Shown here: positions 6,169 to 35,024 of the stretch, piece after piece | How positions within the stretch are numbered: position 1 is the first letter of the stretch | How the letters are laid out: each line of letters begins with the position of its first letter | Assembly (NCBI GenBank): GCA_024402135.1 | Contig: JAKSJN010000010.1 | Coordinates: forward strand, 6,074 to 70,073 | From: Bacteroidales bacterium | Lineage (GTDB): Bacteria > Bacteroidota > Bacteroidia > Bacteroidales > UBA932 | Direction: 5' to 3' | Length of the DNA: 64,000 nt | Made by a program: the position numbers and the translations under genes | Notes under the pieces: generated by a model | Told to the model about the DNA's origin: nothing | Databases searched by the model: none | Seen by the model: only the letters and a program-made list of their open reading frames with translations

Positions 6169-8526
6169 ATGAAAGAGACTACGAAAAACAAGTTAGGAAA
6201 GATTTTCTGGATACTCGTCACCGCACCGGTGGCATTGATCATGATACTCCTCGTGCTGGTATGGCTTTTCGCCGAGATCCCTTCTTTCGAGGAACTTGAG
6301 AACCCTGACAGCAAGCTCGCTACCCAGGTCATCGCCGAGGATGGCGAGACCCTTGCGACCTTCCATATCGAGAACCGTACCTTCGCGTCATACGATGAAC
6401 TTTCGGAGCATCTCGTACATGCCGCTGTGGCAACCGAGGACCAGCGCTTCTACAGCCATTCAGGCATCGACATGCGTGGCCTTGCCCGCGTTGCCGTGAA
6501 GACCCTGCTCATGCGGGATTCCAGCCAGGGAGGTGGAAGTACCATCACCCAGCAGCTCGCAAAGACGCTCTATCCACGCCGAGAGGTAAACAGCAGGATT
6601 CCGGGCATGTCAAAGGTCGTGATGGTCTGGACCAAGCTGAAGGAGTGGATTACTGCCGTCAAGCTCGAGAGGAACTATACCAAGGACGAGATCATGAACA
6701 TGTATCTCAACTCCATCTTCTACGGTGGAGGCGCCTTCGGTGTGAAATCGGCTTCCGAAACCTTCTTCGCCAAACTGCCGGGCGAGCTTACCGTCGAGGA
6801 AGCTGCCATGCTGGTCGGAATGGTCAACAAGCCGACCCGCTACAATCCTGCCATCAATCCGGACAAGGCGCTGACACGCCGCAATTTCGTCATTGGCAAG
6901 ATGGCCCGCGCGGGCTATATCACCAAGGCGGAGCGTGACTCCATCCAGGCAATCCCGATAACTCTCCAGTATCAGGTTCAGGATCACAACGCCGGACATG
7001 CTCCATACTTCAGGGACATGCTCCGCAGGACAATGAACGCCCAGAAACCGAAGCGCTCATCATACCAGAACCGTGAGGACTACTCGGCGGACTCGCTCGC
7101 ATGGGCTACGGATGACCTTTACGGATGGCTGAACAAGAACAAGAAGGCTGACGGAAGCAGCTACGATCTTGACCGTGACGGTCTCCGCATCTATACCACC
7201 ATCAACTACAAGATGCAGCAGTATGCCGAAGAGGCCGTTGCCGAGCATCTGGGAAAGAACCTCCAGAAGAGTTTCGAGAATGATCTCCGCCGCAAGCCGA
7301 ACCGTCCGTTCTCGAATGATGTCGACGAGGATACCCGCAACCGCCTCATGTCCCAGGCACGCCGCTGGAGTGACCGCTACCGCATGATGAAGAATGGTGG
7401 AGCCTCCGAGTCGGAGATTCTCAAGAGTTTCAAGGAGCCGACCAAGATGCGTATCTTCTCATGGGATGGAAAGGGTTACATCGATACCCTCATGACACCG
7501 GACGACTCGATCAAATACTACAAGTCAATCCTCCGCGCCGCTTTCATGGCCATCGAGCCTGGCAGCGGCCATATCAAGGCATACGTCGGCGGACCGAACT
7601 ACCGATACTTCAAGTATGACAATGTCCGTCAGGGCAAGCGTCAGGTGGGCTCGACAATCAAGCCATATCTTTACACCCTTGCGATGCAGTCCGGCATGAG
7701 CCCTTGCACCCAGGTTGTGAACGTTCCTCAGTCATTCATCGTCGGCGAGGACGTATGGACTCCGCGAAGCACCGACAAGGCTGAGTACATCGGCCGTACC
7801 GTGACCCTCAAGTGGGGCCTGGCAAACAGTTCGAACAATATCTCCGCATACCTCATGTCCCAGCTCGGACCGGAAGCAATGCTCGGAATGATGCGCGCCA
7901 TGGGAATCAGCAGCTATGTCGATGCTGTTCCTGCCCTCTGTGTGGGCTCGGCTGACATTTCCGTTTACGAGATGGTATCGGCATACAACACCTTCCCTTC
8001 AAAGGGCGTATATGTAACCCCTATGTTCGTGACCCGTATCGAGGATAACCAGGGCAACGTGATCTCGGAGTTTACCAACCGCAAGCGTGAGGCGATCAGC
8101 GAAGAGACAGCATACCTCATGGCGAATCTCATGCAGGGCGTTGTCAATGCAGGAACAGGCTCCCGCCTTCGCGGCACATATGCTCTCCGCGGCGAGATCG
8201 CCGGCAAGACAGGAACCACCAACGACAACTCGGATGGCTGGTTCATCGGCTATACACCATCCCTCACAGCAGGTATCTGGGTAGGTGCCGAGGACCGTCA
8301 GGTACATTTCCAGTCTCTTGCCCTCGGTGGAGGATCCAACATGGCCCTTCCTATCTGGGGTATCTTCATGAAGAAGGTTCTCAAGGACGGCACTCTGGGC
8401 ATCAGCGAGAGTGACAAGTTCCAGGCCCCCGCCGGCATGGTGCTCGATCTGAGCTGCAGCGGTGGTGACGAGGATGCTGCCATGAAGAAGGCTGCCGCAG
8501 AGGAGGAAGAGTATTTCGATTTCTAG
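6169..8526 (+). CDS. Class A penicillin-binding protein (transglycosylase/transpeptidase, PBP1A)
   Basis: N-terminal TM; EDQRFYSHSGID, GGSTITQQLAK, RNYTKDEIMNMYLN; GSTIKP (SxxK), SSN, GKTGT. Confidence 0.95.
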   Translation: MKETTKNKLGKIFWILVTAPVALIMILLVLVWLFAEIPSFEELENPDSKLATQVIAEDGETLATFHIENRTFASYDELSEHLVHAAVATEDQRFYSHSGIDMRGLARVAVKTLLMRDSSQGGGSTITQQLAKTLYPRREVNSRIPGMSKVVMVWTKLKEWITAVKLERNYTKDEIMNMYLNSIFYGGGAFGVKSASETFFAKLPGELTVEEAAMLVGMVNKPTRYNPAINPDKALTRRNFVIGKMARAGYITKAERDSIQAIPITLQYQVQDHNAGHAPYFRDMLRRTMNAQKPKRSSYQNREDYSADSLAWATDDLYGWLNKNKKADGSSYDLDRDGLRIYTTINYKMQQYAEEAVAEHLGKNLQKSFENDLRRKPNRPFSNDVDEDTRNRLMSQARRWSDRYRMMKNGGASESEILKSFKEPTKMRIFSWDGKGYIDTLMTPDDSIKYYKSILRAAFMAIEPGSGHIKAYVGGPNYRYFKYDNVRQGKRQVGSTIKPYLYTLAMQSGMSPCTQVVNVPQSFIVGEDVWTPRSTDKAEYIGRTVTLKWGLANSSNNISAYLMSQLGPEAMLGMMRAMGISSYVDAVPALCVGSADISVYEMVSAYNTFPSKGVYVTPMFVTRIEDNQGNVISEFTNRKREAISEETAYLMANLMQGVVNAGTGSRLRGTYALRGEIAGKTGTTNDNSDGWFIGYTPSLTAGIWVGAEDRQVHFQSLALGGGSNMALPIWGIFMKKVLKDGTLGISESDKFQAPAGMVLDLSCSGGDEDAAMKKAAAEEEEYFDF

Positions 8527-28264: not shown

Positions 28265-28349
28265 GCCTTGATGGTGAAATGGTAGACACGAGGGACTTAA
28301 AATCCCTTGGGCAGTAATGTCCGTGCGGGTTCGATTCCCGCTCGAGGCA
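28265..28349 (+). tRNA. tRNA-Leu (anticodon TAA)
   Basis: Acceptor stem GCCTTGA/TCGAGGC, D arm TGGTAGAC, anticodon arm ggga-cTTAAaa-tccc, long variable arm, T arm GGTTCGATTCC; CCA not encoded; -7 box TATCTTTG at 28248-28255. Confidence 0.96.
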
Positions 28350-28352
28350 CAG

Positions 28353-28380
28353 AAAAAGACAGCTATTCAGCTGTCTTTTT
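28353..28380. terminator. Bidirectional terminator after tRNA-Leu
   Basis: Perfect 12-bp stem aaaaagacagct/agctgtcttttt. Confidence 0.9.
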
Positions 28381-28381
28381 C

Positions 28382-28556
28382 CTATTCATTGGATGAGCGA
28401 CCACCCTGTAAGGTTGCAGCCTGTATTGGTTGGAGGATTTTCCACAGGAAGAAGGCGGAAATGATGGTGCCAAGAAGCAGCGCGATGACCGAGGCCTCGG
28501 GACCGAATGAGCCGCCGGTGATGATATCGGGGCCGTTGATATTCGCCGTAAAAATG
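28382..28556 (-). pseudogene. Duplicated 3' fragment of the CPBP gene
   Basis: Encodes IFTANINGPDIITGG...GGRSSNE, matching the C-terminus of 34158-35024; unrelated sequence upstream. Confidence 0.85.
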
Positions 28557-28665
28557 AATGCCGCCAAAGCCACGAAAGAGGAAAGAACTGCTGAAAGAAA
28601 ATGTCTTTCTCAGTCGTCCGTCCGAGGAAGACACATGTAGAAACATATCAGGATGGCATCAATGC

Positions 28666-29262
28666 TTATTCCTCGTACGACTCAAGGGTGCTGACTATTT
28701 CATCGGCGGCGTTGATTATCGTCTTTGAGTTCAGATATTCTATGCCCAAGCACACGATAATTACAAGGATTAATAGAGCCACGGCGCACATCGCCTTGGT
28801 TGGAGTACTCCAGGAGGAATAAATTCTTGGTATGAAATACATTATCACAAGTAAGACGGCACCCCAGACTATAATCAGATAGCGGAAGTAAGCCTTTTTG
28901 AATTGCTTGACAGCAATGATGCTTGTCAGGACGTCACAAGAAAGCATCCTGTTGATATCGTACTTCTTGTAAAAAACCAAGTTCAAGACAAAGAGGAATA
29001 CAATCAGTGAACCGGCAACGATAGGATAATACAGCGGAATCTTTTTCAAAATGGTTATTATGATAACCACGGCCATTGCAATTGGAGCTGCGATGTTTGA
29101 GATTATCTTGTCTCTTTCAATTACCGCCACATTTCTCTTGAAGGTCGCCTTCATGATTTCATCATTGACAATCTTCTGCTTGTCAAGATCCTGCTTGAGG
29201 GTATGATATTGCTCTTTAAGCTGTTTCAGCTCTTCGGAGCAGTTCAATTCTTCGTTCATCAT
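28666..29262 (-). CDS. Membrane protein, putative anti-sigma factor
   Basis: Short N-terminal coiled coil plus about 4 TM segments; starts 8 bp after the ECF sigma stop. Confidence 0.6.
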   Translation of the reverse strand: MMNEELNCSEELKQLKEQYHTLKQDLDKQKIVNDEIMKATFKRNVAVIERDKIISNIAAPIAMAVVIIITILKKIPLYYPIVAGSLIVFLFVLNLVFYKKYDINRMLSCDVLTSIIAVKQFKKAYFRYLIIVWGAVLLVIMYFIPRIYSSWSTPTKAMCAVALLILVIIVCLGIEYLNSKTIINAADEIVSTLESYEE

Positions 29263-29270
29263 TCTGAGTG

Positions 29271-29750
29271 TTAATTGTTCATCTGTTTCAATTCTTCTTT
29301 GATTCTGTGAAGCTGGAAGGAAACGTTCTTGACTGATATGCCGATTATGGCTCCTATCTCCTCATACGACATTCCCTCAAGCCAGAGGAGAATAATGGCA
29401 CGGTCAATCAGCCCCAGGCCGTTGATCCTGTCATAAAGGCGCTTGGTCTGAAGCGATCTGTCGCTGATACCTTCAAACGGGTCGATGTCAATGCTGAGAG
29501 GCAGGTGCTGCCCTTCGCGTTTCCTTTTCTTCTGCAAGTTCAGGCAGCAGTTCATGGCGATTCTGAACACCCATGTTCTGGCATCGGATTCCCCGCGAAA
29601 ATCATCGTAGCCCTTCCACAGTTTGACAAGTACTTCCTGGAACAGGTCGTCGACTTCATCCCTGTCCTTTGAAAACATCAGGCAAACAGTATAGATTGTG
29701 CTCTTATGCCGTTCGACCATTTTTGTGAATTCCAGTTCCTTTATGTCCAT
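29271..29750 (-). CDS. ECF RNA polymerase sigma-70 factor
   Basis: Start reassigned to MDIKELEF; DDLFQEVLVKLWK, RTWVFRIAMN, LWLEGMSYEEIGAIIGIS. Confidence 0.92.
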   Translation of the reverse strand: MDIKELEFTKMVERHKSTIYTVCLMFSKDRDEVDDLFQEVLVKLWKGYDDFRGESDARTWVFRIAMNCCLNLQKKRKREGQHLPLSIDIDPFEGISDRSLQTKRLYDRINGLGLIDRAIILLWLEGMSYEEIGAIIGISVKNVSFQLHRIKEELKQMNN

Positions 29751-29943
29751 CTTCAAGTGAATCAAACACTCATTAGACAACGAAGTTGCATAAAAACTAT
29801 ATAAAAACACTAAAAATAGCTGTGGGTATGATTATCCCTTGATAGTCGACACTCAATATTTATTGATATTCGCAATAATATTTATCGTTTTTCGTAAAAT
29901 TGGCATTACCTTTGCTTTTGAGTTTTGAAAACGATAAATCATT

Positions 29944-30420
29944 ATGAAACTTTCAAATCAAAGGGCTATCAAAACCATCAGTCTCGTTGCTCTTGCTATA
30001 GGAGCCATTTATCTGTTCTTTGTCTATTACAGCACCGTCTGTTGTTTGTGGTTCAATGAAGCTCCCGACAGAATCATATGGAGCACAACTCAGAAACCTT
30101 GGCAGATTGCTGTTCTGGCGGGCTATGTATTAGGGGCAACGGCAGTATTCTCACTGTGCTCAGCTATAGAGATTAACATTCTGAAGGGCTTGAAGTCCGG
30201 TAATCTCTTTCCTTTCAAGAATTTCGTCCTCATTATCCTTACAGCCATAATGGTAGGAGTCACAATATTCTTCAAGGCCAATGTCAATGATGTGATGAAA
30301 GGAGTCGAATGCTCTGTCCTGGACAGCAACTGCATTTTCGTTCCACTCGTCATAATTGTATTCGGTCTTCTATATAAACAAGCCTCCCTTGCGATGGAGG
30401 ATAGTAATCTTGCCATTTAA
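29944..30420 (+). CDS. DUF2975-like membrane protein
   Basis: 4 TMs; GNLF motif; C-terminus A..EDSNLAI; upstream of a Cro/C1 HTH gene. Confidence 0.72.
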   Translation: MKLSNQRAIKTISLVALAIGAIYLFFVYYSTVCCLWFNEAPDRIIWSTTQKPWQIAVLAGYVLGATAVFSLCSAIEINILKGLKSGNLFPFKNFVLIILTAIMVGVTIFFKANVNDVMKGVECSVLDSNCIFVPLVIIVFGLLYKQASLAMEDSNLAI

Positions 30421-30432
30421 TCTTAGAAAAGT

Positions 30433-30888
30433 ATGAAAATCAAGAATCAGAGGTCGCTGATCTCATTATGCTATTTAACCCTCTTCTTTTGTGCTCTATG
30501 CCTGTATGTCGCGGCAGCTGATATTATTTCAGGCCTTAAAGGATTTGAATTCTCCCCTGACCCGAAATTTCCGCATTACTTTATATTCTATGGGAAGCAT
30601 TTTTTCTCCATTGCTCTGGTTGGGGTACTGTCTGCCATAATTGTCAACACTCTCAAGGGGATAAAGACCAACAATGCTTTCCCAAAAAAGAATGTCACAC
30701 TGATTTATGTTCTTGCGGTTGTGGATATGCTGATGCATTTCTGCTCTTGCAACTGGCATATTCTGAATGGAGAAAGATATATCAGTATTGATGGCGATGT
30801 CCTGATTACTCCTATGGTGCTGGTTATATTTGGAATACTATACTCAATGGCACATAAAGCATCTGTTGACAGCAATCTTGCGATATGA
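30433..30888 (+). CDS. DUF2975-like membrane protein (paralog)
   Basis: 4 TMs; NAFPKKN; C-terminus ASVDSNLAI; ATGA overlap with the HTH gene. Confidence 0.72.
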   Translation: MKIKNQRSLISLCYLTLFFCALCLYVAAADIISGLKGFEFSPDPKFPHYFIFYGKHFFSIALVGVLSAIIVNTLKGIKTNNAFPKKNVTLIYVLAVVDMLMHFCSCNWHILNGERYISIDGDVLITPMVLVIFGILYSMAHKASVDSNLAI

Positions 30889-31124
30889 TTACAATTAACC
30901 TTGACATAGTCCTTGCCACAAGGCGGATGACTCTAAGCGAATTGTCCGAAAAGGTGGATGTGAACCTGACAAACCTATCCATCCTCAAGACCGGCAAGGC
31001 GAGGGCCATACGCTTCACCACCCTCAATGCCATCTGCCGTGTTTTGAACTGTAAACCCGGGGATATTCTTGACTATGAGCCGGATCCGGAAGGAATCCAG
31101 ATCCTGGAGGAAGACGATGAATAA
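30885..31124 (+). CDS. Cro/C1-type HTH regulator (YozG-like)
   Basis: NLDIVLATRRMTLSELSEKV...NLSILKTGKARAIRFTTLNAICRVLNCKPGDIL. Confidence 0.92.
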   Translation: MITINLDIVLATRRMTLSELSEKVDVNLTNLSILKTGKARAIRFTTLNAICRVLNCKPGDILDYEPDPEGIQILEEDDE

Positions 31125-31126
31125 TA

Positions 31127-31777
31127 ATGCGAGAACTTCTTTGCATATCTATTTTGCTGAGTCTGGGCGTAATCGGTCTTAGGGCGCAGGAGTATCCAGT
31201 TACCGTCCTTGACGGGCAGAAAATGCAGATCGATTCAACATTCTTGAGTACAATGACGAAGCCGGCAGTGTCGTCAACCTTCCTGCATCCGCGGTTCAAT
31301 GAGTTACAGGTCCCATCAATATTGGTGATGCCCCAAGGTTTCGAGACCATGGAACAGCGGGCTGCGAGAATCAATTTCCAGACTTTCAACTCTGTAATGA
31401 CGTCCGTTGACCTGAATCTGTACTGGCACAGACTCCCAAAGATGCCAAAGCCCTGGAAGCAGACACTTGGAGCGGCAAAACTATTTCTGTCGAATCCCAA
31501 TGGCTTCCCGGAAGGATGCGTGCCGTTGATGAATGCATCATTTCCTTTTATCTATGCAAAGATTCCCGGCATGGCGCCTTATGACAATCCGTATACGTCC
31601 GATCAGTTCCCGAAATGCATAGATTCCGAATATGATTTCGCAACAGGGACTTATAAACAAGTGATGGTTGACTGGGCGGAAGTGCAGAATAGAATGTCCG
31701 CCACCGGCCAGTCTAGCCAACCTGTTCCTTCCGTTCCTATTACTCCAGTCGAGAGGATGATGCACGGAACGCAATAA
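31127..31777 (+). CDS. Hypothetical secreted protein
   Basis: Signal peptide ending LRAQ; 2-bp gap after the HTH gene; Pro-rich; no recognised motif. Confidence 0.65.
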   Translation: MRELLCISILLSLGVIGLRAQEYPVTVLDGQKMQIDSTFLSTMTKPAVSSTFLHPRFNELQVPSILVMPQGFETMEQRAARINFQTFNSVMTSVDLNLYWHRLPKMPKPWKQTLGAAKLFLSNPNGFPEGCVPLMNASFPFIYAKIPGMAPYDNPYTSDQFPKCIDSEYDFATGTYKQVMVDWAEVQNRMSATGQSSQPVPSVPITPVERMMHGTQ

Positions 31778-31792
31778 AAGCACCTCAAAAAG

Positions 31793-32165
31793 ATGTATAG
31801 AAATTCTATTGTCCATAATAGCCATTCTTCATATCACTATTATCGCAAATGCTCAGAGCGATCATACGATATTCGAACGAGTCGTCAATGAGCAGGGACA
31901 AGGGATAGAATAAGTCAACATCGGAATACCGAAGGACACCGTTTTCACCGTTTCCGATATCAACGGCTATTTCTCCCTGGATATTCCAAAAAGCAAAACC
32001 AATTCGGACGAATATGGCACCGTACTTTTTGAAGAGGCGCAAAAAATCCTTCCAAATTACGGGATGACACTAAGAAAAGATATGACAGACGGAGACCCTG
32101 ACTATGAAGAAAATTTCACAGTTATCTATAAAACAAAATGCCCCTCAGCATTGGTCTGCGTGTAG
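31793..32165 (+). pseudogene. Chimeric pseudogene: signal peptide + carboxypeptidase-regulatory-like domain fused to an N-acetylmuramoyl-L-alanine amidase (amidase_3) fragment
   Basis: Removing one A near 31801 gives MYRILLSIIAILHITIIANAQ...VVNEQGQGIE*(TAA 31911)VNIGI...TVSDINGYFSLDIP, then in frame KTNSDEYGTVLFEEAQKILP..GMTLRKDMTDGDPDYEENFTVIYKTKCPSAL. Confidence 0.75.
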
Positions 32166-32309
32166 TTGGTATAGAATATCTTGACTAGTTCTTTGGCTTG
32201 AAATACTTATGTCGACAATTAGTCGGTAAACATGAGCGATCGAATAGGGGGAAATACAGAATAAGACATATTTTTTGCTAAGCATCGAGTTTTTTCTTAC
32301 ATTTACCCA

Positions 32310-32317
32310 TAATTTTG
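32310..32317 (+). promoter_or_regulatory. Candidate -7 box (TAATTTTG) for the TIGR04255 operon
   Basis: TAnnTTTG match 47 nt upstream of ATG 32365; AT-rich context makes a chance match possible. Confidence 0.4.
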
Positions 32318-32364
32318 GGGATGTTGGCCTCATATTTGTGTAATTTGAAGAAAAACATTTGGTT

Positions 32365-33096
32365 ATGACTAATCAACACCTTCCTATAAGGCTTAAAAAT
32401 TGCCCTATTGTTGATGCTCTTCTTGAGATACGCTTCACTTCAAATCTCAATAGAAGTGCAGTGTTTGGTTACATTTATAGCCTTTTGCAGAATTCTTATC
32501 CAGGACCTGTATGTAATCTTCCTTTGTCTCAGATTCCTGATGCAATAAGAGAAAAGGATCCGAATCTTCAATTTAAACCCATCTATAGAATAGATGGTAC
32601 TGAAACAGTCCTTCAAATTGGGCCTGATGTGATTACTCTTAGCTCCAAGTTGCCCTATATCGGGTGGGACAAATTAGAGTTACAAGCAATTGAAATTATC
32701 TCTCGGCTTAAAGACAAGGGTGCGATAGACAAGGTCCTTCGTTTTGGGCATAGGTATATTAATTTCTTTGAAGGATGCATTGATGAACGATTGAATATGT
32801 CTGTCAACTTTGTTGATGGCTATTGTGCAAAGAATATCCAAATTAGGTCAGAAGTTAGCGATGGTTTTTTCACGAACACTTTGCAATATTCTAATTCCGC
32901 CGAGTATCGCCCAGTAGATATCTCCGTTGTAAAAAAAGGCTCCATTATTGATATTGATACATTTAGGTTTTACTCTGATGATTATTTTCTTAACAACATT
33001 AAGGAAGAAATCAACACAGCTCACGTTAGCGAAAAGAATCTATTTTATTCTTTGTTAAAACCCGATTTCATCATTGAACTTAATCCAGAATATTAA
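32365..33096 (+). CDS. TIGR04255 family protein
   Basis: LKNCPIVDALLEIRF, YP, LQIGPDVI, PYIGWD, RFGHRYINFF, IIDID, C-terminal LFYSLL pattern; ATG at 32365 (track start is an upstream TTG). Confidence 0.8.
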   Translation: MTNQHLPIRLKNCPIVDALLEIRFTSNLNRSAVFGYIYSLLQNSYPGPVCNLPLSQIPDAIREKDPNLQFKPIYRIDGTETVLQIGPDVITLSSKLPYIGWDKLELQAIEIISRLKDKGAIDKVLRFGHRYINFFEGCIDERLNMSVNFVDGYCAKNIQIRSEVSDGFFTNTLQYSNSAEYRPVDISVVKKGSIIDIDTFRFYSDDYFLNNIKEEINTAHVSEKNLFYSLLKPDFIIELNPEY

Positions 33097-33098
33097 AC

Positions 33099-33413
33099 AT
33101 GGATACATATTCTTCTAATTATTTGCTTCTCCCTGGTCTTTCTGCGATTACATTGACAGTAACAGGAGTGTCCCCGATAAATGTATGTGATATTGATTAT
33201 TCCCCTAGTAAAATAGTGGAAGTATTCGTTAATCCAACTTGTCCATATTCACCTTCTACTAGTTCAACGACTAACGAAACCATAATCATTAATAAAGATT
33301 TGGATGATCTTCTTGCAATCGAGTCTTTTGCCCGTAAAATATTGGATGGGATGACTCCTATTGAAGAGTCAATACAATCAGTGATTAACGACCATTTCTG
33401 GGAGATGCTATGA
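33099..33413 (+). CDS. Small acidic protein (candidate antitoxin)
   Basis: 2-bp gap from the upstream stop and ATGA overlap with the downstream gene; S/T/P-rich N-half and helical acidic C-half ending DHFWEML. Confidence 0.7.
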   Translation: MDTYSSNYLLLPGLSAITLTVTGVSPINVCDIDYSPSKIVEVFVNPTCPYSPSTSSTTNETIIINKDLDDLLAIESFARKILDGMTPIEESIQSVINDHFWEML

Positions 33414-34042
33414 TTCTAGATGATGAGATAAAAATATATCTCCCAAAATATTTATCTGCGGAAAATTACGAAACTCTCATTAGAGAATTAAAGTCTTTCC
33501 CAGATAATATCGATGGTAGGATGTATACTACAATAGCAGAAGAAAATCTGCTCTGTCAAGGTGATGTTATTAGCAATATGCCTGTCGTAGAAATTGAGCA
33601 TCTGGATAAACCAATAAAAAATAAGGATTGTATCATTCTTTCAAATACTTGCGATATCAATTTAGACAATTCGAGATTATTCCCCGCCCGCATAATGTAT
33701 GCGCCACTAGTTGAATTAAAGAAGTATAAGGAAGTTCTTCTAAAATATCCAGGCAATAGTGAGCAGAAAGTAAACGACCACATTGCAAGTATAAAGAGTC
33801 AAAAAATATCACAGATTTTATATCTTCCTACTAATGGGGAAATGCAGGAATCTATTGTGTTCCTTGACCGAGTCCTGAATATTGATAGCCGATATATAGA
33901 TAGGATGACGCTCAAAGAAAGACGAGTGGTATCTTTAAGTGATTATGGATTTTACATGTTTCTTTTCAAAATATCGGTTCATTTTTCTAGAATGCAGGAA
34001 AATGTAACCAGAGGCTGCAAAGAAAAATCAGGGGATAATTGA
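33410..34042 (+). CDS. Hypothetical protein with PemK/MazF-like motif order (candidate toxin)
   Basis: QGDVI...CIILSNTCD...MYAPL...LYLP...IVFLDRVLNID...VSLS...C-terminal helix follows the PemK/MazF strand order; fold call is by eye. Confidence 0.6.
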   Translation: MILDDEIKIYLPKYLSAENYETLIRELKSFPDNIDGRMYTTIAEENLLCQGDVISNMPVVEIEHLDKPIKNKDCIILSNTCDINLDNSRLFPARIMYAPLVELKKYKEVLLKYPGNSEQKVNDHIASIKSQKISQILYLPTNGEMQESIVFLDRVLNIDSRYIDRMTLKERRVVSLSDYGFYMFLFKISVHFSRMQENVTRGCKEKSGDN

Positions 34043-34106
34043 TTCTTGCCATTTGTCAACGGAACTGTAAACGAAAACAGATAACCGACTGATGCACAAC
34101 GGTATA

Positions 34107-34332
34107 TCGATTCCCGCTCGAGGCACAGAAAAAGACAGCTATTCAGCTGTCTTTTTCCTATTCATTGGATGAGCGACCACCCTGTAAGGTTGCAGCCTGT
34201 ATTGGTTGGAGGATTTTCCACAGGAAGAAGGCGGAAATGATGGTGCCAAGAAGCAGCGCGATGACCGAGGCCTCGGGACCGAATGAGCCGCCGGTGATGA
34301 TATCGGGGCCGTCGATATTCGCCGTAAAAATG
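34107..34332 (+). repeat. 226-bp direct repeat, copy 2 (attR side)
   Basis: Begins with the last 19 nt of tRNA-Leu (tcgattcccgctcgaggca), includes the terminator copy at 34129-34156 and the true CPBP 3' end. Confidence 0.95.
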
Positions 34333-35024
34333 GATTCTCCCGCATCTTCTCCAGATACTGCGAAGCCAAAGACATTGCCTTGGGTGAAGTTCCATGCCCA
34401 ATGGATGCCGATTGGCAACCATAGAGAATTCGAGTATTTGTAGGCGGCTCCGAGCAGGATTCCAGCTTCCATCACAATTGCAACAGAACTCCATATGCTT
34501 GCGCCTGGATTGAACATATGGGCAAACCCAAAGATCAGGGCAGAAATACCCAATGCCCACCACAATCCGAATCTGTCATCTATCAGCCTGAAGATGACGC
34601 CGCGGAATATGACTTCTTCGCAACAGGCTACAAGAAAAAAGAGGCAAAGGTTCGAGATTATATCGGACCAGTGCGGCGAGACGTATTGTATACTGTAACA
34701 ACCTGTCACATAGAGCAGCCCTGTCAGCAATACGAAGAATGAGAATCCGATCAAGACGCCGCAGAGAATGTTCTTTCCTTCATTTCTGGCCAATAATTCC
34801 CATTTCCATTGCTTTTCAAACAACCGTGTCCATCGCCGGAATATCGCAAGAATGAATACAGCAACAATGAGCACTGCAACATCTTTTGCGACCGGCTGAG
34901 GGATACCCCAGAAGCCTATGCCAATACCGTAAAGGACAGTAAAGAGGATAACGCCAAGGATTAATTCCAATATCCATTTCCACAATGGAAGTGAATCACT
35001 CTTATATTGTCTGCCAATCGACAT
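34158..35024 (-). CDS. CPBP family (Abi/CAAX-like) intramembrane glutamic endopeptidase
   Basis: ACCEEVIFRG, FGFAH, IGIHWAWN, TGGSFGPEAS; multiple TMs. Confidence 0.92.
   Translation of the reverse strand: MSIGRQYKSDSLPLWKWILELILGVILFTVLYGIGIGFWGIPQPVAKDVAVLIVAVFILAIFRRWTRLFEKQWKWELLARNEGKNILCGVLIGFSFFVLLTGLLYVTGCYSIQYVSPHWSDIISNLCLFFLVACCEEVIFRGVIFRLIDDRFGLWWALGISALIFGFAHMFNPGASIWSSVAIVMEAGILLGAAYKYSNSLWLPIGIHWAWNFTQGNVFGFAVSGEDAGESIFTANIDGPDIITGGSFGPEASVIALLLGTIISAFFLWKILQPIQAATLQGGRSSNE

What the first reader, a model, noticed from the sequence alone, without database searches (positions are those of the whole stretch)
32365..34042. Candidate undescribed tripartite toxin-antitoxin-chaperone-like / anti-phage system: TIGR04255 + small acidic protein + PemK/MazF-like protein
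Seen: three tightly coupled genes (2-bp gap, ATGA overlap) in strongly AT-rich DNA, e.g. 14 G+C in 60 nt at 32941-33000 versus 38 in 60 at 6301-6360. They are intact although neighbours are decayed, and they sit between an endolysin remnant and attR. Gene 3 follows the PemK/MazF motif order but has S-N-T-C-D and lacks the usual R-P, so its chemistry may differ. Gene 2 has a low-complexity S/T/P-rich N-half and an acidic amphipathic C-terminal helix (…VINDHFWEML), like antitoxin tails that bind MazF dimers. Known: TIGR04255 is a sporadically distributed family for which I know no function; the lysin-to-att interval is a classic site for prophage defence morons; SecB-dependent TAC systems (HigBAC, CmdTAC) sense phage proteins through the chaperone. 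Inference: TIGR04255 is a chaperone or sensor that stabilises gene 2, which neutralises an RNase toxin, giving abortive infection or addiction that keeps the islet in place. Novelty cannot be confirmed without searches.
Basis: partly seen in the sequence, partly recalled or inferred. Interest (0 to 1): 0.88.

Follow-up and report, generated by a model that had tools for sequence, protein, structure and literature searches.

The report
TIGR04255-led three-gene MazF-fold toxin cassette
Three tightly coupled, co-transcribed genes (a TIGR04255 protein, a small acidic protein and a divergent MazF-fold protein) form a conserved, mobile, often phage-borne cassette that looks like an undescribed three-part toxin-antitoxin or anti-phage module, though nobody has tested what it does.

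Summary
Three intact genes (32365-33096, 33099-33413, 33410-34042) lie in 35% G+C DNA, separated by a 2-nt gap and an ATGA overlap. One metatranscriptome contig (32234-34097) covers exactly these three genes.

- **Gene 1** is TIGR04255 (114 bits). Its confident model shows a duplicated alpha/beta fold that resembles TBP only weakly and is not SecB-like.
- **Gene 2** is an acidic protein with a variable, low-complexity middle and a conserved C-terminal helical module.
- **Gene 3** has no Pfam or PADLOC hit, but its model matches MazF/Kid/CcdB structures.

The same gene order recurs in about 160 loci from roughly ten phyla and in phages, often in accessory loci next to integrase, CI repressor or portal genes. 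TIGR04255 also heads sister cassettes with swapped partners. One of these carries a true PemK toxin in slot three.

There is no endolysin remnant, and gene 1 is not SecB-like. The att repeat is real.

My best reading is a new tripartite toxin-antitoxin/abortive-infection module. Toxicity and phage protection are untested. It matches no named system that I could search.

The parts
32234..34097 (+). Transcribed unit covering g1, g2 and g3. The ends are those of an assembled RNA contig, not mapped transcript ends.
   Evidence: Metatranscriptome run X6 gives one 1,864-nt contig at 32234-34097 with depth 10.8. Depth is 0 at 31944-32177 and from 34284 onward.
32310..32317 (+). TAATTTTG, a match to the Bacteroidetes-type -7 promoter element, 47 nt upstream of the g1 ATG.
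   Evidence: Pattern search. This is a consensus match only. The RNA contig starts further upstream, so the real promoter is not mapped.
32365..33096 (+). Gene 1: TIGR04255 family protein, 243 aa, acidic. The predicted fold is a duplicated beta-alpha-beta3-alpha unit. It is the constant first gene of several cassette types.
   Evidence: NCBIfam TIGR04255 at 114 bits; phrog_5464; AF2 pLDDT 94.5; only weak Foldseek matches to TBP and AdoMetDC, and none to SecB; pI 5.3.
33099..33413 (+). Gene 2: 104-aa acidic protein, the putative antitoxin or adaptor. It has a short conserved N-terminal motif, a hypervariable low-complexity middle, and a conserved C-terminal two-helix module ending in NFWDL(I/L).
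   Evidence: No family hit; alignment of 70 homologs; pI 4.05, family median 4.4; stop codon overlaps the g3 start (ATGA).
33410..34042 (+). Gene 3: 210-aa divergent MazF/CcdB-fold protein, the putative toxin or effector. It has an N-terminal extension of about 45 aa, a helical insert (103-129), and invariant QGD, SNTCD, N87 and R89.
   Evidence: AF2 pLDDT 74, with the core at 84-95; the top 28 or so Foldseek PDB hits are all MazF, Kid, CcdB or CptN; phrog_4575; invariant residues; family of 1,036 clusters at 50% identity.
34107..34335 (+). Right-hand att-type direct repeat. The first 20 nt copy the 3' end of tRNA-Leu, and in this genome the repeat runs to 229 nt. It includes the hairpin at 34128-34157.
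   Evidence: the repeat finder D1: 28331-28559 equals 34107-34335 at 99%. L058 has the 20-nt repeat only. Terminator-like hairpin.
28265..28350 (+). tRNA-Leu (anticodon taa), the integration target and left boundary of the 5.5-kb low-G+C islet that carries the trio.
   Evidence: ARAGORN; repeat analysis.

Best explanation
The three genes form one horizontally mobile operon that works as a three-component toxin-antitoxin-type module.

- **Gene 3** is the effector. It is a divergent member of the MazF/Kid/CcdB fold, most likely a nuclease (RNase) with a modified active site built around the invariant QGD, SNTCD and N..R residues.
- **Gene 2** is the neutraliser. Its conserved acidic C-terminal helices bind and block gene 3. 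Its short N-terminal motif contacts gene 1, and the disordered middle is a tether or a degradation-prone segment.
- **Gene 1** (TIGR04255) is the constant regulatory partner. It stabilises or monitors gene 2. A trigger such as a phage product or loss of the element would then free gene 3 and stop growth. The outcome would be abortive infection or superinfection exclusion when the cassette is carried by a prophage, and addiction of the element otherwise.

Shown here: co-transcription, translational coupling, conservation of the unit, the folds of g1 and g3, partner swapping, and location on mobile elements and phages.

Inferred, not shown: toxicity, who binds whom, the trigger, and the biological outcome.
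For: - One RNA contig spans exactly g1-g3. The genes are joined by a 2-nt gap and an ATGA overlap.
- The order g1-g2-g3 is kept in 80 of 96 loci found through g3 and 81 of 91 found through g1. These come from about ten phyla, IMG/VR contigs and cultured Pseudomonas phages.
- The g3 model matches only MazF, Kid, CcdB and CptN structures at the top of the list (E 2e-4, TM 0.6-0.69 relative to the target).
- In contig L100, a TIGR04255 gene 51% identical to g1 is followed by a small protein and a bona fide PemK_toxin (25.9 bits, cutoff 23.1; also phrog_1936 'MazF-like growth inhibitor').
- Type C cassettes carry a shorter g3 homolog (hhalign 92%, E 5.5e-7).
- g2 is strongly acidic and sits directly upstream of the putative toxin with an overlapping stop/start, the classic type II antitoxin position.
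- Saprospiraceae loci keep g3 with only a different small upstream gene and no g1, so g1 appears to be accessory to the toxin/neutraliser pair.
- TIGR04255 stays constant while the second and third genes vary across types A-E, as expected of a regulatory or sensor hub.
- The cassette lies between integrase and CI repressor, next to CI, or between integrase and portal in prophages and phages. The region upstream of the portal gene is an established anti-phage hotspot in P2-like phages (PMC9122126).
Against: - No experiment or sequence-level homology links g3 to MazF.
- The g3 model is only moderately confident (pLDDT 74), and three of the five models are poor.
- The canonical MazF catalytic Arg-Pro is absent, and the fold is shared by the gyrase poison CcdB, so the target is open.
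- g2 has no DNA-binding domain, unlike MazE or PemI.
- g1 has few invariant residues and no informative structural neighbour, so its role is a guess.
- Immediate chromosomal neighbours in about 45 species are mostly housekeeping genes. Restriction-modification, HipA or integrase genes appear in only a few loci, so defence-island enrichment is weak.
- PADLOC-DB dates from 2023 and DefenseFinder and TADB were not available, so a recent naming cannot be excluded.
Confidence: 0.5

Rival explanations
1. The cassette is purely an addiction (post-segregational killing) module. It keeps the islet, prophage or cassette in place and has no role in phage defence. Gene 1 only tunes the stability or expression of the antitoxin.
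For: Many chromosomal copies are solitary cassettes among housekeeping genes, next to transposases, or in small islets without other defence genes. The window's islet has lost any integrase yet keeps the trio intact and expressed. CcdB-type folds are classic plasmid addiction toxins.
Against: The cassette recurs in prophage accessory loci that are known reservoirs of anti-phage genes. The swapping of effectors behind a constant first gene is typical of defence systems. Many toxin-antitoxin modules do both jobs, so the two readings do not exclude each other.
Confidence: 0.2
2. Genes 1 and 3 together form a two-subunit nuclease. Gene 1, with two TBP-like repeats, binds and positions the nucleic-acid substrate, as the tandem TBP-like domains of the anti-phage RNase RnlA do. 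Gene 3 cuts, and gene 2 is the inhibitor.
For: The only structural neighbours of g1 are TBP-like or AdoMetDC-like duplicated alpha/beta folds. [quoted passage not shown] TBP-like domains also serve RNase H3 (PMC8266594 and PMC3710099).
Against: The TBP match is weak (TM about 0.3), and RnlA is not among the top 50 hits. g1 is acidic (pI 5.3, family median 5.7), which is unusual for a nucleic-acid binder. g1 pairs with third genes of unrelated sequence (types B and E). g3 occurs without g1 in Saprospiraceae.
Confidence: 0.12
3. The trio is not a toxin system at all. It is a phage or mobile-element accessory module with another role, such as control of lysogeny, anti-defence or a structural function. 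The MazF-like fold of gene 3 would then be a non-toxic binding scaffold, and gene 1 could be an omega-like transcriptional regulator.
For: There are no functional data. All public names are 'hypothetical protein', and both PHROG families are of unknown function. The gene order regulator-antitoxin-toxin also fits omega-epsilon-zeta-type layouts (my own knowledge). The g3 model is imperfect.
Against: g3 has about 20 invariant, mostly polar residues clustered in motifs, which suggests catalysis. A true PemK toxin occupies the same slot in a sister cassette. The cassette is frequent in chromosomes far from any phage. g1 is acidic and lacks any DNA-binding motif.
Confidence: 0.1

Closest known systems
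MazEF / PemIK (Kid-Kis) / CcdAB type II toxin-antitoxin systems
   Same: The predicted fold of gene 3 matches MazF, Kid and CcdB. An acidic small protein is encoded immediately upstream with overlapping stop/start. The cassette is carried by mobile elements and phages. A sister cassette contains a genuine PemK_toxin.
   Different: There is no Pfam PF02452 hit and no significant profile similarity. Gene 3 is twice the size, with an N-terminal extension and a helical insert. SNTCD replaces the usual R-P region. Gene 2 has no AbrB or RHH DNA-binding domain. A conserved third gene (TIGR04255) leads the operon.
Toxin-antitoxin-chaperone systems (HigBA-SecB-like TAC; CmdTAC)
   Same: Both are three-gene operons in which one constant accessory protein is combined with different toxin/antitoxin pairs, and both are plausible phage-sensing designs.
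   Different: Gene 1 is not SecB-like: no Pfam hit and no SecB among the fold matches. It is encoded first rather than last. The conserved short motif of gene 2 is N-terminal, whereas the chaperone-addiction segment of TAC antitoxins is C-terminal (my own knowledge). The toxin family also differs.
RnlAB / LsoAB anti-phage toxin-antitoxin systems
   Same: An RNase-type effector is associated with two tandem TBP-like modules and a small protein inhibitor (PMC8266594).
   Different: In RnlA the TBP-like domains are fused to a HEPN nuclease. Here they form a separate protein alongside a MazF-fold protein. The structural similarity of g1 to TBP is weak, and RnlA itself was not retrieved.
Type II Gabija GajC (split MazF-like domain with helical insertion)
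   Same: [quoted passage not shown] That architecture resembles gene 3.
   Different: GajC pairs with the GajB helicase, not with TIGR04255 and a small acidic protein. No sequence was available to test for homology.
Rst_3HP ('hp+hp+hp') system of the E. coli P2 hotspot
   Same: It is a three-gene cassette of hypothetical proteins in a P2-like phage hotspot and protects against P1 (PMC9122126).
   Different: Its proteins are 334, 366 and 226 aa, and the two compared (the 334- and 226-aa ones) show no similarity to g3 or g1 (hhalign probability below 1%). It is unrelated.

Membership tests
TIGR04255 family (gene 1) | Full-length match to the NCBIfam TIGR04255 HMM above the curated cutoff (30 bits). 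| tested here: met
   114 bits, E 9.8e-33, profile positions 1-248 of 252. Homologs are named 'TIGR04255 family protein' by NCBI and JGI.
PemK/MazF toxin family (gene 3) | Sequence match to Pfam PF02452 PemK_toxin. | tested here: not met
   No Pfam hit at E up to 1. The PDB profile search is empty.
PemK/MazF toxin family (gene 3) | MazF/Kid/CcdB-type beta-barrel fold. | tested here: met
   The top 28 or so Foldseek PDB hits are MazF, Kid, CcdB or CptN (E 2e-4 to 0.2, TM relative to target 0.6-0.69). Caveat: the model's mean pLDDT is 74, and three of five models were poor.
PemK/MazF toxin family (gene 3) | Conserved catalytic Arg (R-P before strand 2) and Thr/Ser of MazF. | tested here: inconclusive
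   No R-P is present. K70 is nearly invariant at the equivalent place, and SNTCD, N87 and R89 are invariant. No residue-level structural alignment was available.
PemK/MazF toxin family (gene 3) | Growth inhibition by RNA cleavage, relieved by the cognate antitoxin. | not testable with these tools
   Needs expression and cleavage assays.
MazE/PemI-type antitoxin (gene 2) | N-terminal DNA-binding domain (AbrB/SpoVT or RHH) plus an acidic C-terminal toxin-binding tail. | tested here: not met
   No Pfam, NCBIfam or PHROG domain. Only the acidic C-terminal helical module is present.
Toxin-antitoxin-chaperone (TAC) systems | SecB-like chaperone as the third component. | tested here: not met
   g1 has no SecB Pfam hit and no SecB chain among the top 50 Foldseek PDB hits.
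Toxin-antitoxin-chaperone (TAC) systems | Three co-transcribed genes, with one accessory protein shared among different toxin/antitoxin pairs. | tested here: met
   A single RNA contig covers the trio. TIGR04255 precedes five different downstream pairs.
Known anti-phage systems in PADLOC-DB v2.0.0 | HMM match of any component to a catalogued defence or candidate-defence protein. | tested here: not met
   No hit for any of the three proteins at E up to 1. The database dates from 2023. DefenseFinder and TADB could not be run.
Rst_3HP (Rousset et al. 2022) | Homology to the Hp1, Hp2 and Hp3 proteins of the cloned E. coli E1114 system. | tested here: not met
   hhalign probability is below 1% for g1 against Hp3 and for g3 against Hp1. 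The sizes also differ.
RnlA-like TBP-domain plus RNase systems | Tandem TBP-like domains associated with the nuclease. | tested here: inconclusive
   g1 matches TBP chains at TM 0.22-0.35 and probability 0.35-0.95. RnlA itself is not retrieved. The internal-repeat test is not significant, though the two halves align in register.

The most novel reading that the evidence does not exclude
TIGR04255 is the common hub of a large, unrecognised superfamily of three-gene immune cassettes. In this reading, one constant sensor or adaptor with a duplicated TBP-like fold is wired, through a modular intrinsically disordered adaptor protein, to interchangeable effectors: the g3-type MazF-fold enzyme with SNTCD chemistry, canonical PemK, and at least two further unknown effector families. 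Temperate phages spread these cassettes through their accessory hotspots. Gene 3 would then define a new catalytic variant of the MazF/CcdB fold.
Probability: 0.3. Interest if true: 0.8.

Novelty: new variant of a known kind. Interest (0 to 1): 0.62.

Why it matters
If the model is right, it gives a function to TIGR04255, a widespread 'sporadic' family with no known role. It would also add a new branch with altered chemistry to the MazF/CcdB toxin fold. And it would define a modular three-component design, comparable in logic to TAC/CmdTAC, that temperate phages of gut Bacteroidales, Pseudomonas and Acinetobacter carry in their accessory loci.

The g3 family alone has about 1,000 clusters at 50% identity, and the cassette is expressed in a gut metatranscriptome. 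It could therefore affect phage-host dynamics in the gut and the stability of prophages. It is directly testable, because cultured carriers exist: phages Dobby and VW-6S, Acinetobacter baylyi DSM 14961, and Parabacteroides goldsteinii.

Tried and rejected
1. Rst_3HP identity: rejected. The trio's position in a P2-like phage suggested it, but the published sequences are unrelated.
2. SecB-like chaperone for gene 1: rejected by the fold search.
3. Endolysin remnant upstream: rejected. The ORF is a small signal-peptide protein with one nonsense mutation.
4. Sequence-level link of g3 to MazF: not significant.
5. BFVD fold search for g1: only unnamed or giant-virus proteins, nothing informative.
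6. PDB sequence searches for g1 and for the type B third gene: nothing.
7. Internal duplication of g1 by profile comparison: not significant.
8. Strong defence-island enrichment: not found among 148 flanking proteins from about 45 species.
9. Literature searches for TIGR04255, the accession numbers, the PHROG ids, and 'MazF-like' or 'TBP-like' three-gene systems: no description of this cassette.
10. GajC sequence for a direct comparison: not available in the held supplements.
11. DNA-level search of the phage collection with the trio: no match.
12. g1 as a DNA-binding regulator: considered unlikely, because g1 is acidic and has no DNA-binding motif.
Full report
**1. What is in the window**

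Three same-strand ORFs occupy 32365-33096 (g1, 243 aa), 33099-33413 (g2, 104 aa) and 33410-34042 (g3, 210 aa). The junctions are TAAacATG (a 2-nt gap) and an ATGA overlap. The trio is 35.2% G+C, the surrounding islet 40.4%, and the rest of the window 53.2%.

A tRNA-Leu gene lies at 28265-28350. Its last 20 nt, plus 209 further nt, are repeated at 34107-34335 at 99% identity. So a 5.5-kb low-G+C islet is bracketed by att-type repeats.

An independent contig from another sample (L058) carries the same islet at 99.1% identity. There it is bounded only by the 20-nt tRNA-end repeat and has different flanks. The islet is therefore a discrete inserted unit, and the 'attR' reading is reasonable.

The islet holds these other genes:
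- an ECF sigma factor and a 198-aa partner of unknown family;
- two paralogous membrane proteins and an HTH_26 regulator;
- a 216-aa protein with an N-terminal signal-peptide-like sequence.

It has no integrase and no lysin. The ORF just upstream of g1 is a small signal-peptide protein. It is intact in L058 (117 aa) and has one TAT>TAA nonsense change here. It has no lysin signature. The 'endolysin remnant' and the general 'decayed neighbours' are therefore not supported.

**2. Expression**

A gut metatranscriptome run (X6) contains a single 1,864-nt contig that maps to 32234-34097. That is from 131 nt upstream of the g1 ATG to 55 nt past the g3 stop. It has the highest depth in the islet (10.8). 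Depth is zero in the bins directly on either side of the operon, 31944-32177 and 34284 onward. This pattern argues for RNA rather than contaminating DNA, and for one tricistronic transcript. The contig ends are assembly ends, not mapped transcript ends. A Bacteroidetes-type -7 box (TAATTTTG) lies at 32310, but the true promoter is not mapped.

**3. The three proteins**

*g1.* It matches NCBIfam TIGR04255 (114 bits, cutoff 30) and phrog_5464, a family of unknown function. It has no Pfam or PADLOC hit. With 30 homologs, AlphaFold2 gives a confident model (pLDDT 94.5, pTM 0.89) made of two similar beta-alpha-beta3-alpha halves. Foldseek against the PDB finds only weak matches (TM about 0.3) to AdoMetDC/prozyme and TATA-binding protein, and no SecB chain among the top 50. 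BFVD adds nothing useful. A profile comparison of the two halves is not significant, although the aligned segment is in register. g1 is acidic (pI 5.3, family median 5.7), and only W101, Y131 and H220 are invariant. This looks like a binding or scaffold protein rather than an enzyme or a DNA binder.

*g2.* It has no family hit. An alignment of 70 homologs shows three parts:
- a short semi-conserved N-terminal hydrophobic motif (LLxxALSxS-like);
- a hypervariable low-complexity middle;
- a well-conserved C-terminal module of about 45 aa, probably two helices, ending in NFWDL(I/L).

It is very acidic (pI 4.05, median 4.4).

*g3.* It has no Pfam, NCBIfam or PADLOC hit. It matches phrog_4575, of unknown function. 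An exhaustive profile search finds 1,036 clusters at 50% identity with E up to 1e-3. Among the 150 listed, all are standalone proteins of about 200 aa, or shorter fragments, and none is fused to another domain. Twenty positions are at least 95% conserved in 81 diverse sequences, including Q50-G51-D52, S78-N79-T80-C81-D82, N87, R89, D153, R194 and R201. The AlphaFold2 model is moderate (mean pLDDT 74, core 84-95, termini poor, and three of five models poor). The best model's top 28 or so PDB matches are all MazF, MoxT, Kid, CcdB or CptN (E from 2e-4, TM relative to target 0.6-0.69). Similarity at sequence level is not detectable. Relative to MazF, g3 has an N-terminal extension of about 45 aa carrying a conserved LPKYLS motif, a two-helix insert (103-129) and a long conserved C-terminal helix.

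**4. The trio is a conserved unit**

Loci were retrieved through g3 from one-genome-per-species contigs, from IMG/VR and from a handful of g3-anchored contig and phage-record look-ups. Of these 96 loci, 80 have g1, g2 and g3 in the same order and with the same tight spacing. Most exceptions are truncated contigs or divergent first and second genes.

The carriers span Bacteroidota, Ignavibacteriota, Cloacimonadota, Spirochaetota, Desulfobacterota, Fibrobacterota, Hydrogenedentota, Pseudomonadota (Acinetobacter, Psychrobacter, Marinobacter, Magnetococcales) and others.

Among 91 loci anchored on g1 instead, 81 have the full trio, 5 are truncated, 1 has g1 and g3 with no g2 detected, and 4 have different downstream partners. 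Three Saprospiraceae loci keep g3 with only an unrelated small upstream gene and no g1.

**5. Partner swapping**

TIGR04255 genes, all above the family cutoff, head at least five cassette types.

| Type | Example loci | Gene sizes (aa) | Third gene |
|---|---|---|---|
| A | this window | about 240 + 105 + 205 | g3, MazF-fold |
| B | L101, L188-190, L194-196 | about 235 + 176-186 + 152-153 | unknown; abundant in gut phage contigs after the tape-measure or Amidase_2 lysin genes |
| C | L103, L191-193 | 243 + 95-99 + 180-186 | shorter g3 homolog (hhalign 92%, E 5.5e-7) |
| D | L100 | 244 + 129 + 123 | true Pfam PemK_toxin (25.9 bits, cutoff 23.1) and phrog_1936 'MazF-like growth inhibitor' |
| E | L105 | 239 + 166 + 233 | unknown |

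The middle proteins are mostly acidic. In type D, g1 is 51% identical to the window's g1. The middle protein keeps N-terminal motifs of its closest g2 relatives (S-C-I/V-T and I-P-S) but has a different C-terminus. That is suggestive only, because the region is low-complexity.

Taken together, g1 is the constant component, slot three is an effector that can be a genuine MazF/PemK toxin, and slot two looks like an adaptor whose C-terminal half goes with the effector.

**6. Genomic setting**

In Bacteroidales prophages the trio lies between the integrase and the CI-like S24 repressor (L065-L068), or just after the repressor at the prophage edge in Parabacteroides goldsteinii (L062).

In Pseudomonas phage VW-6S it lies between CI and the integrase. 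In the P2-like Pseudomonas phage Dobby, the complete trio lies between the integrase and the portal gene. The region upstream of the portal gene is the cos-proximal anti-phage hotspot of E. coli P2-like phages (PMC9122126). In Dobby the other flank is int rather than gpA, so the equivalence is positional.

Elsewhere the cassette sits next to a DDE transposase or a type I restriction-modification S subunit.

A bulk scan of 148 flanking proteins from about 45 species found mostly housekeeping genes. Type I or IIG restriction-modification, HipA_N, integrase or excisionase genes appeared in only two or three loci each. So the cassette behaves as a small self-mobile unit, frequent in phage accessory loci. 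It is not demonstrably enriched in chromosomal defence islands.

**7. How it most likely works**

The architecture is a constant first gene, then a small acidic protein whose stop overlaps the next start, then a MazF-fold protein with a sharply conserved polar motif. The best fit is a three-component toxin-antitoxin-type module:
- g3 is the toxin, probably a nuclease with a modified active site;
- g2 is the neutraliser;
- g1 is a regulatory partner that stabilises or monitors g2.

When the cassette is carried by a prophage, the expected outcome is abortive infection or superinfection exclusion. Otherwise it is addiction of the element.

My rough step confidences are: g3 is the effector, about 0.7; g2 neutralises it, about 0.6; g1 acts through g2 as stabiliser or sensor, about 0.35-0.4; the cassette has an anti-phage role, about 0.45.

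The main rivals are a pure addiction module; a split RnlA-like nuclease in which g1's TBP-like repeats bind the substrate (PMC8266594); and a non-toxic accessory function.

**8. Comparison with known systems and novelty**

g1 is a member of TIGR04255. g3 shares the MazF/CcdB fold but fails the sequence definition of PemK_toxin, so I do not file it as a family member. g2 lacks the DNA-binding domain of MazE and PemI.

The operon resembles TAC/CmdTAC in logic but not in components, since g1 is not SecB-like. It is unrelated to Rst_3HP and matches nothing in PADLOC-DB 2023. Type II Gabija's GajC is an independent example of a MazF-like domain with a helical insert used as a defence effector (PMC13069673).

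No paper in the held library mentions TIGR04255, these accession numbers or these PHROGs. Every public name is 'hypothetical protein'.

I rate it a new variant of a known kind: a tripartite toxin-antitoxin/abortive-infection module with a novel accessory component and a divergent toxin branch.

Limits: there are no functional data, no multimer models and no AFDB search. DefenseFinder and TADB were not available. The g3 model is only moderately confident.

Noticed in passing
window 28265-34335: A 5.5-kb low-G+C islet is inserted at tRNA-Leu(taa). It is flanked by a 229-nt direct repeat (28331-28559 and 34107-34335, 99% identical) that also duplicates the 3' end of the neighbouring CPBP/Rce1-like protease gene. 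The islet has no integrase. In another strain (L058) the same islet is bounded only by the 20-nt tRNA-end repeat and has different flanks.
   Followed up: partly
window 28666-29810 (- strand): An ECF-type sigma factor (Sigma70_r2/r4_2) is followed by a 198-aa protein with no family hit, possibly its anti-sigma partner. Both lie inside the islet.
   Followed up: no
window 29944-31124 (+ strand): Two paralogous small membrane proteins (158 and 151 aa) are followed by an overlapping 79-aa HTH_26 (Cro/CI-type) regulator. The metatranscriptome shows them weakly transcribed.
   Followed up: no
window about 31809-32165 (+ strand): A small signal-peptide ORF, intact in L058 (117 aa), is interrupted here by a TAT>TAA nonsense change near 31917. 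It has no family hit and is not a lysin.
   Followed up: yes
L101, L188-L190, L194-L196: A second, abundant TIGR04255-led cassette (type B) has genes of about 235, 176-186 and 152-153 aa. The third protein carries a conserved LLRAIYSPSF...GISV motif and has no known family. It lies in gut phage contigs after the tape-measure or Amidase_2 lysin genes. It may be another effector family.
   Followed up: partly
L191-L193 (5001-6575) and flanks: The type C cassette (TIGR04255 + 95 aa + 186-aa g3 paralog) sits next to RHS/YD-repeat toxin-like genes in a chromosomal context.
   Followed up: no
P0046 (296 aa): This protein joins the N-terminal two-thirds of a g2-like protein directly to a full g3. It is either a real fusion or a deletion derivative. 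It is seen on two contigs.
   Followed up: no
MF975720.1 (L095 4843-4983): In Pseudomonas phage VW-6S, a 47-aa ORF in the g2 slot is annotated 'integrase, XerC', probably wrongly. g2 was not detected there by the profile.
   Followed up: no
OY726032.1 (plasmid collection): A 14,960-bp Phocaeicola massiliensis record filed as a non-mobilizable plasmid encodes a g3 homolog (56% identity). The record has no annotation. It might be an excised element or a phage-plasmid.
   Followed up: no
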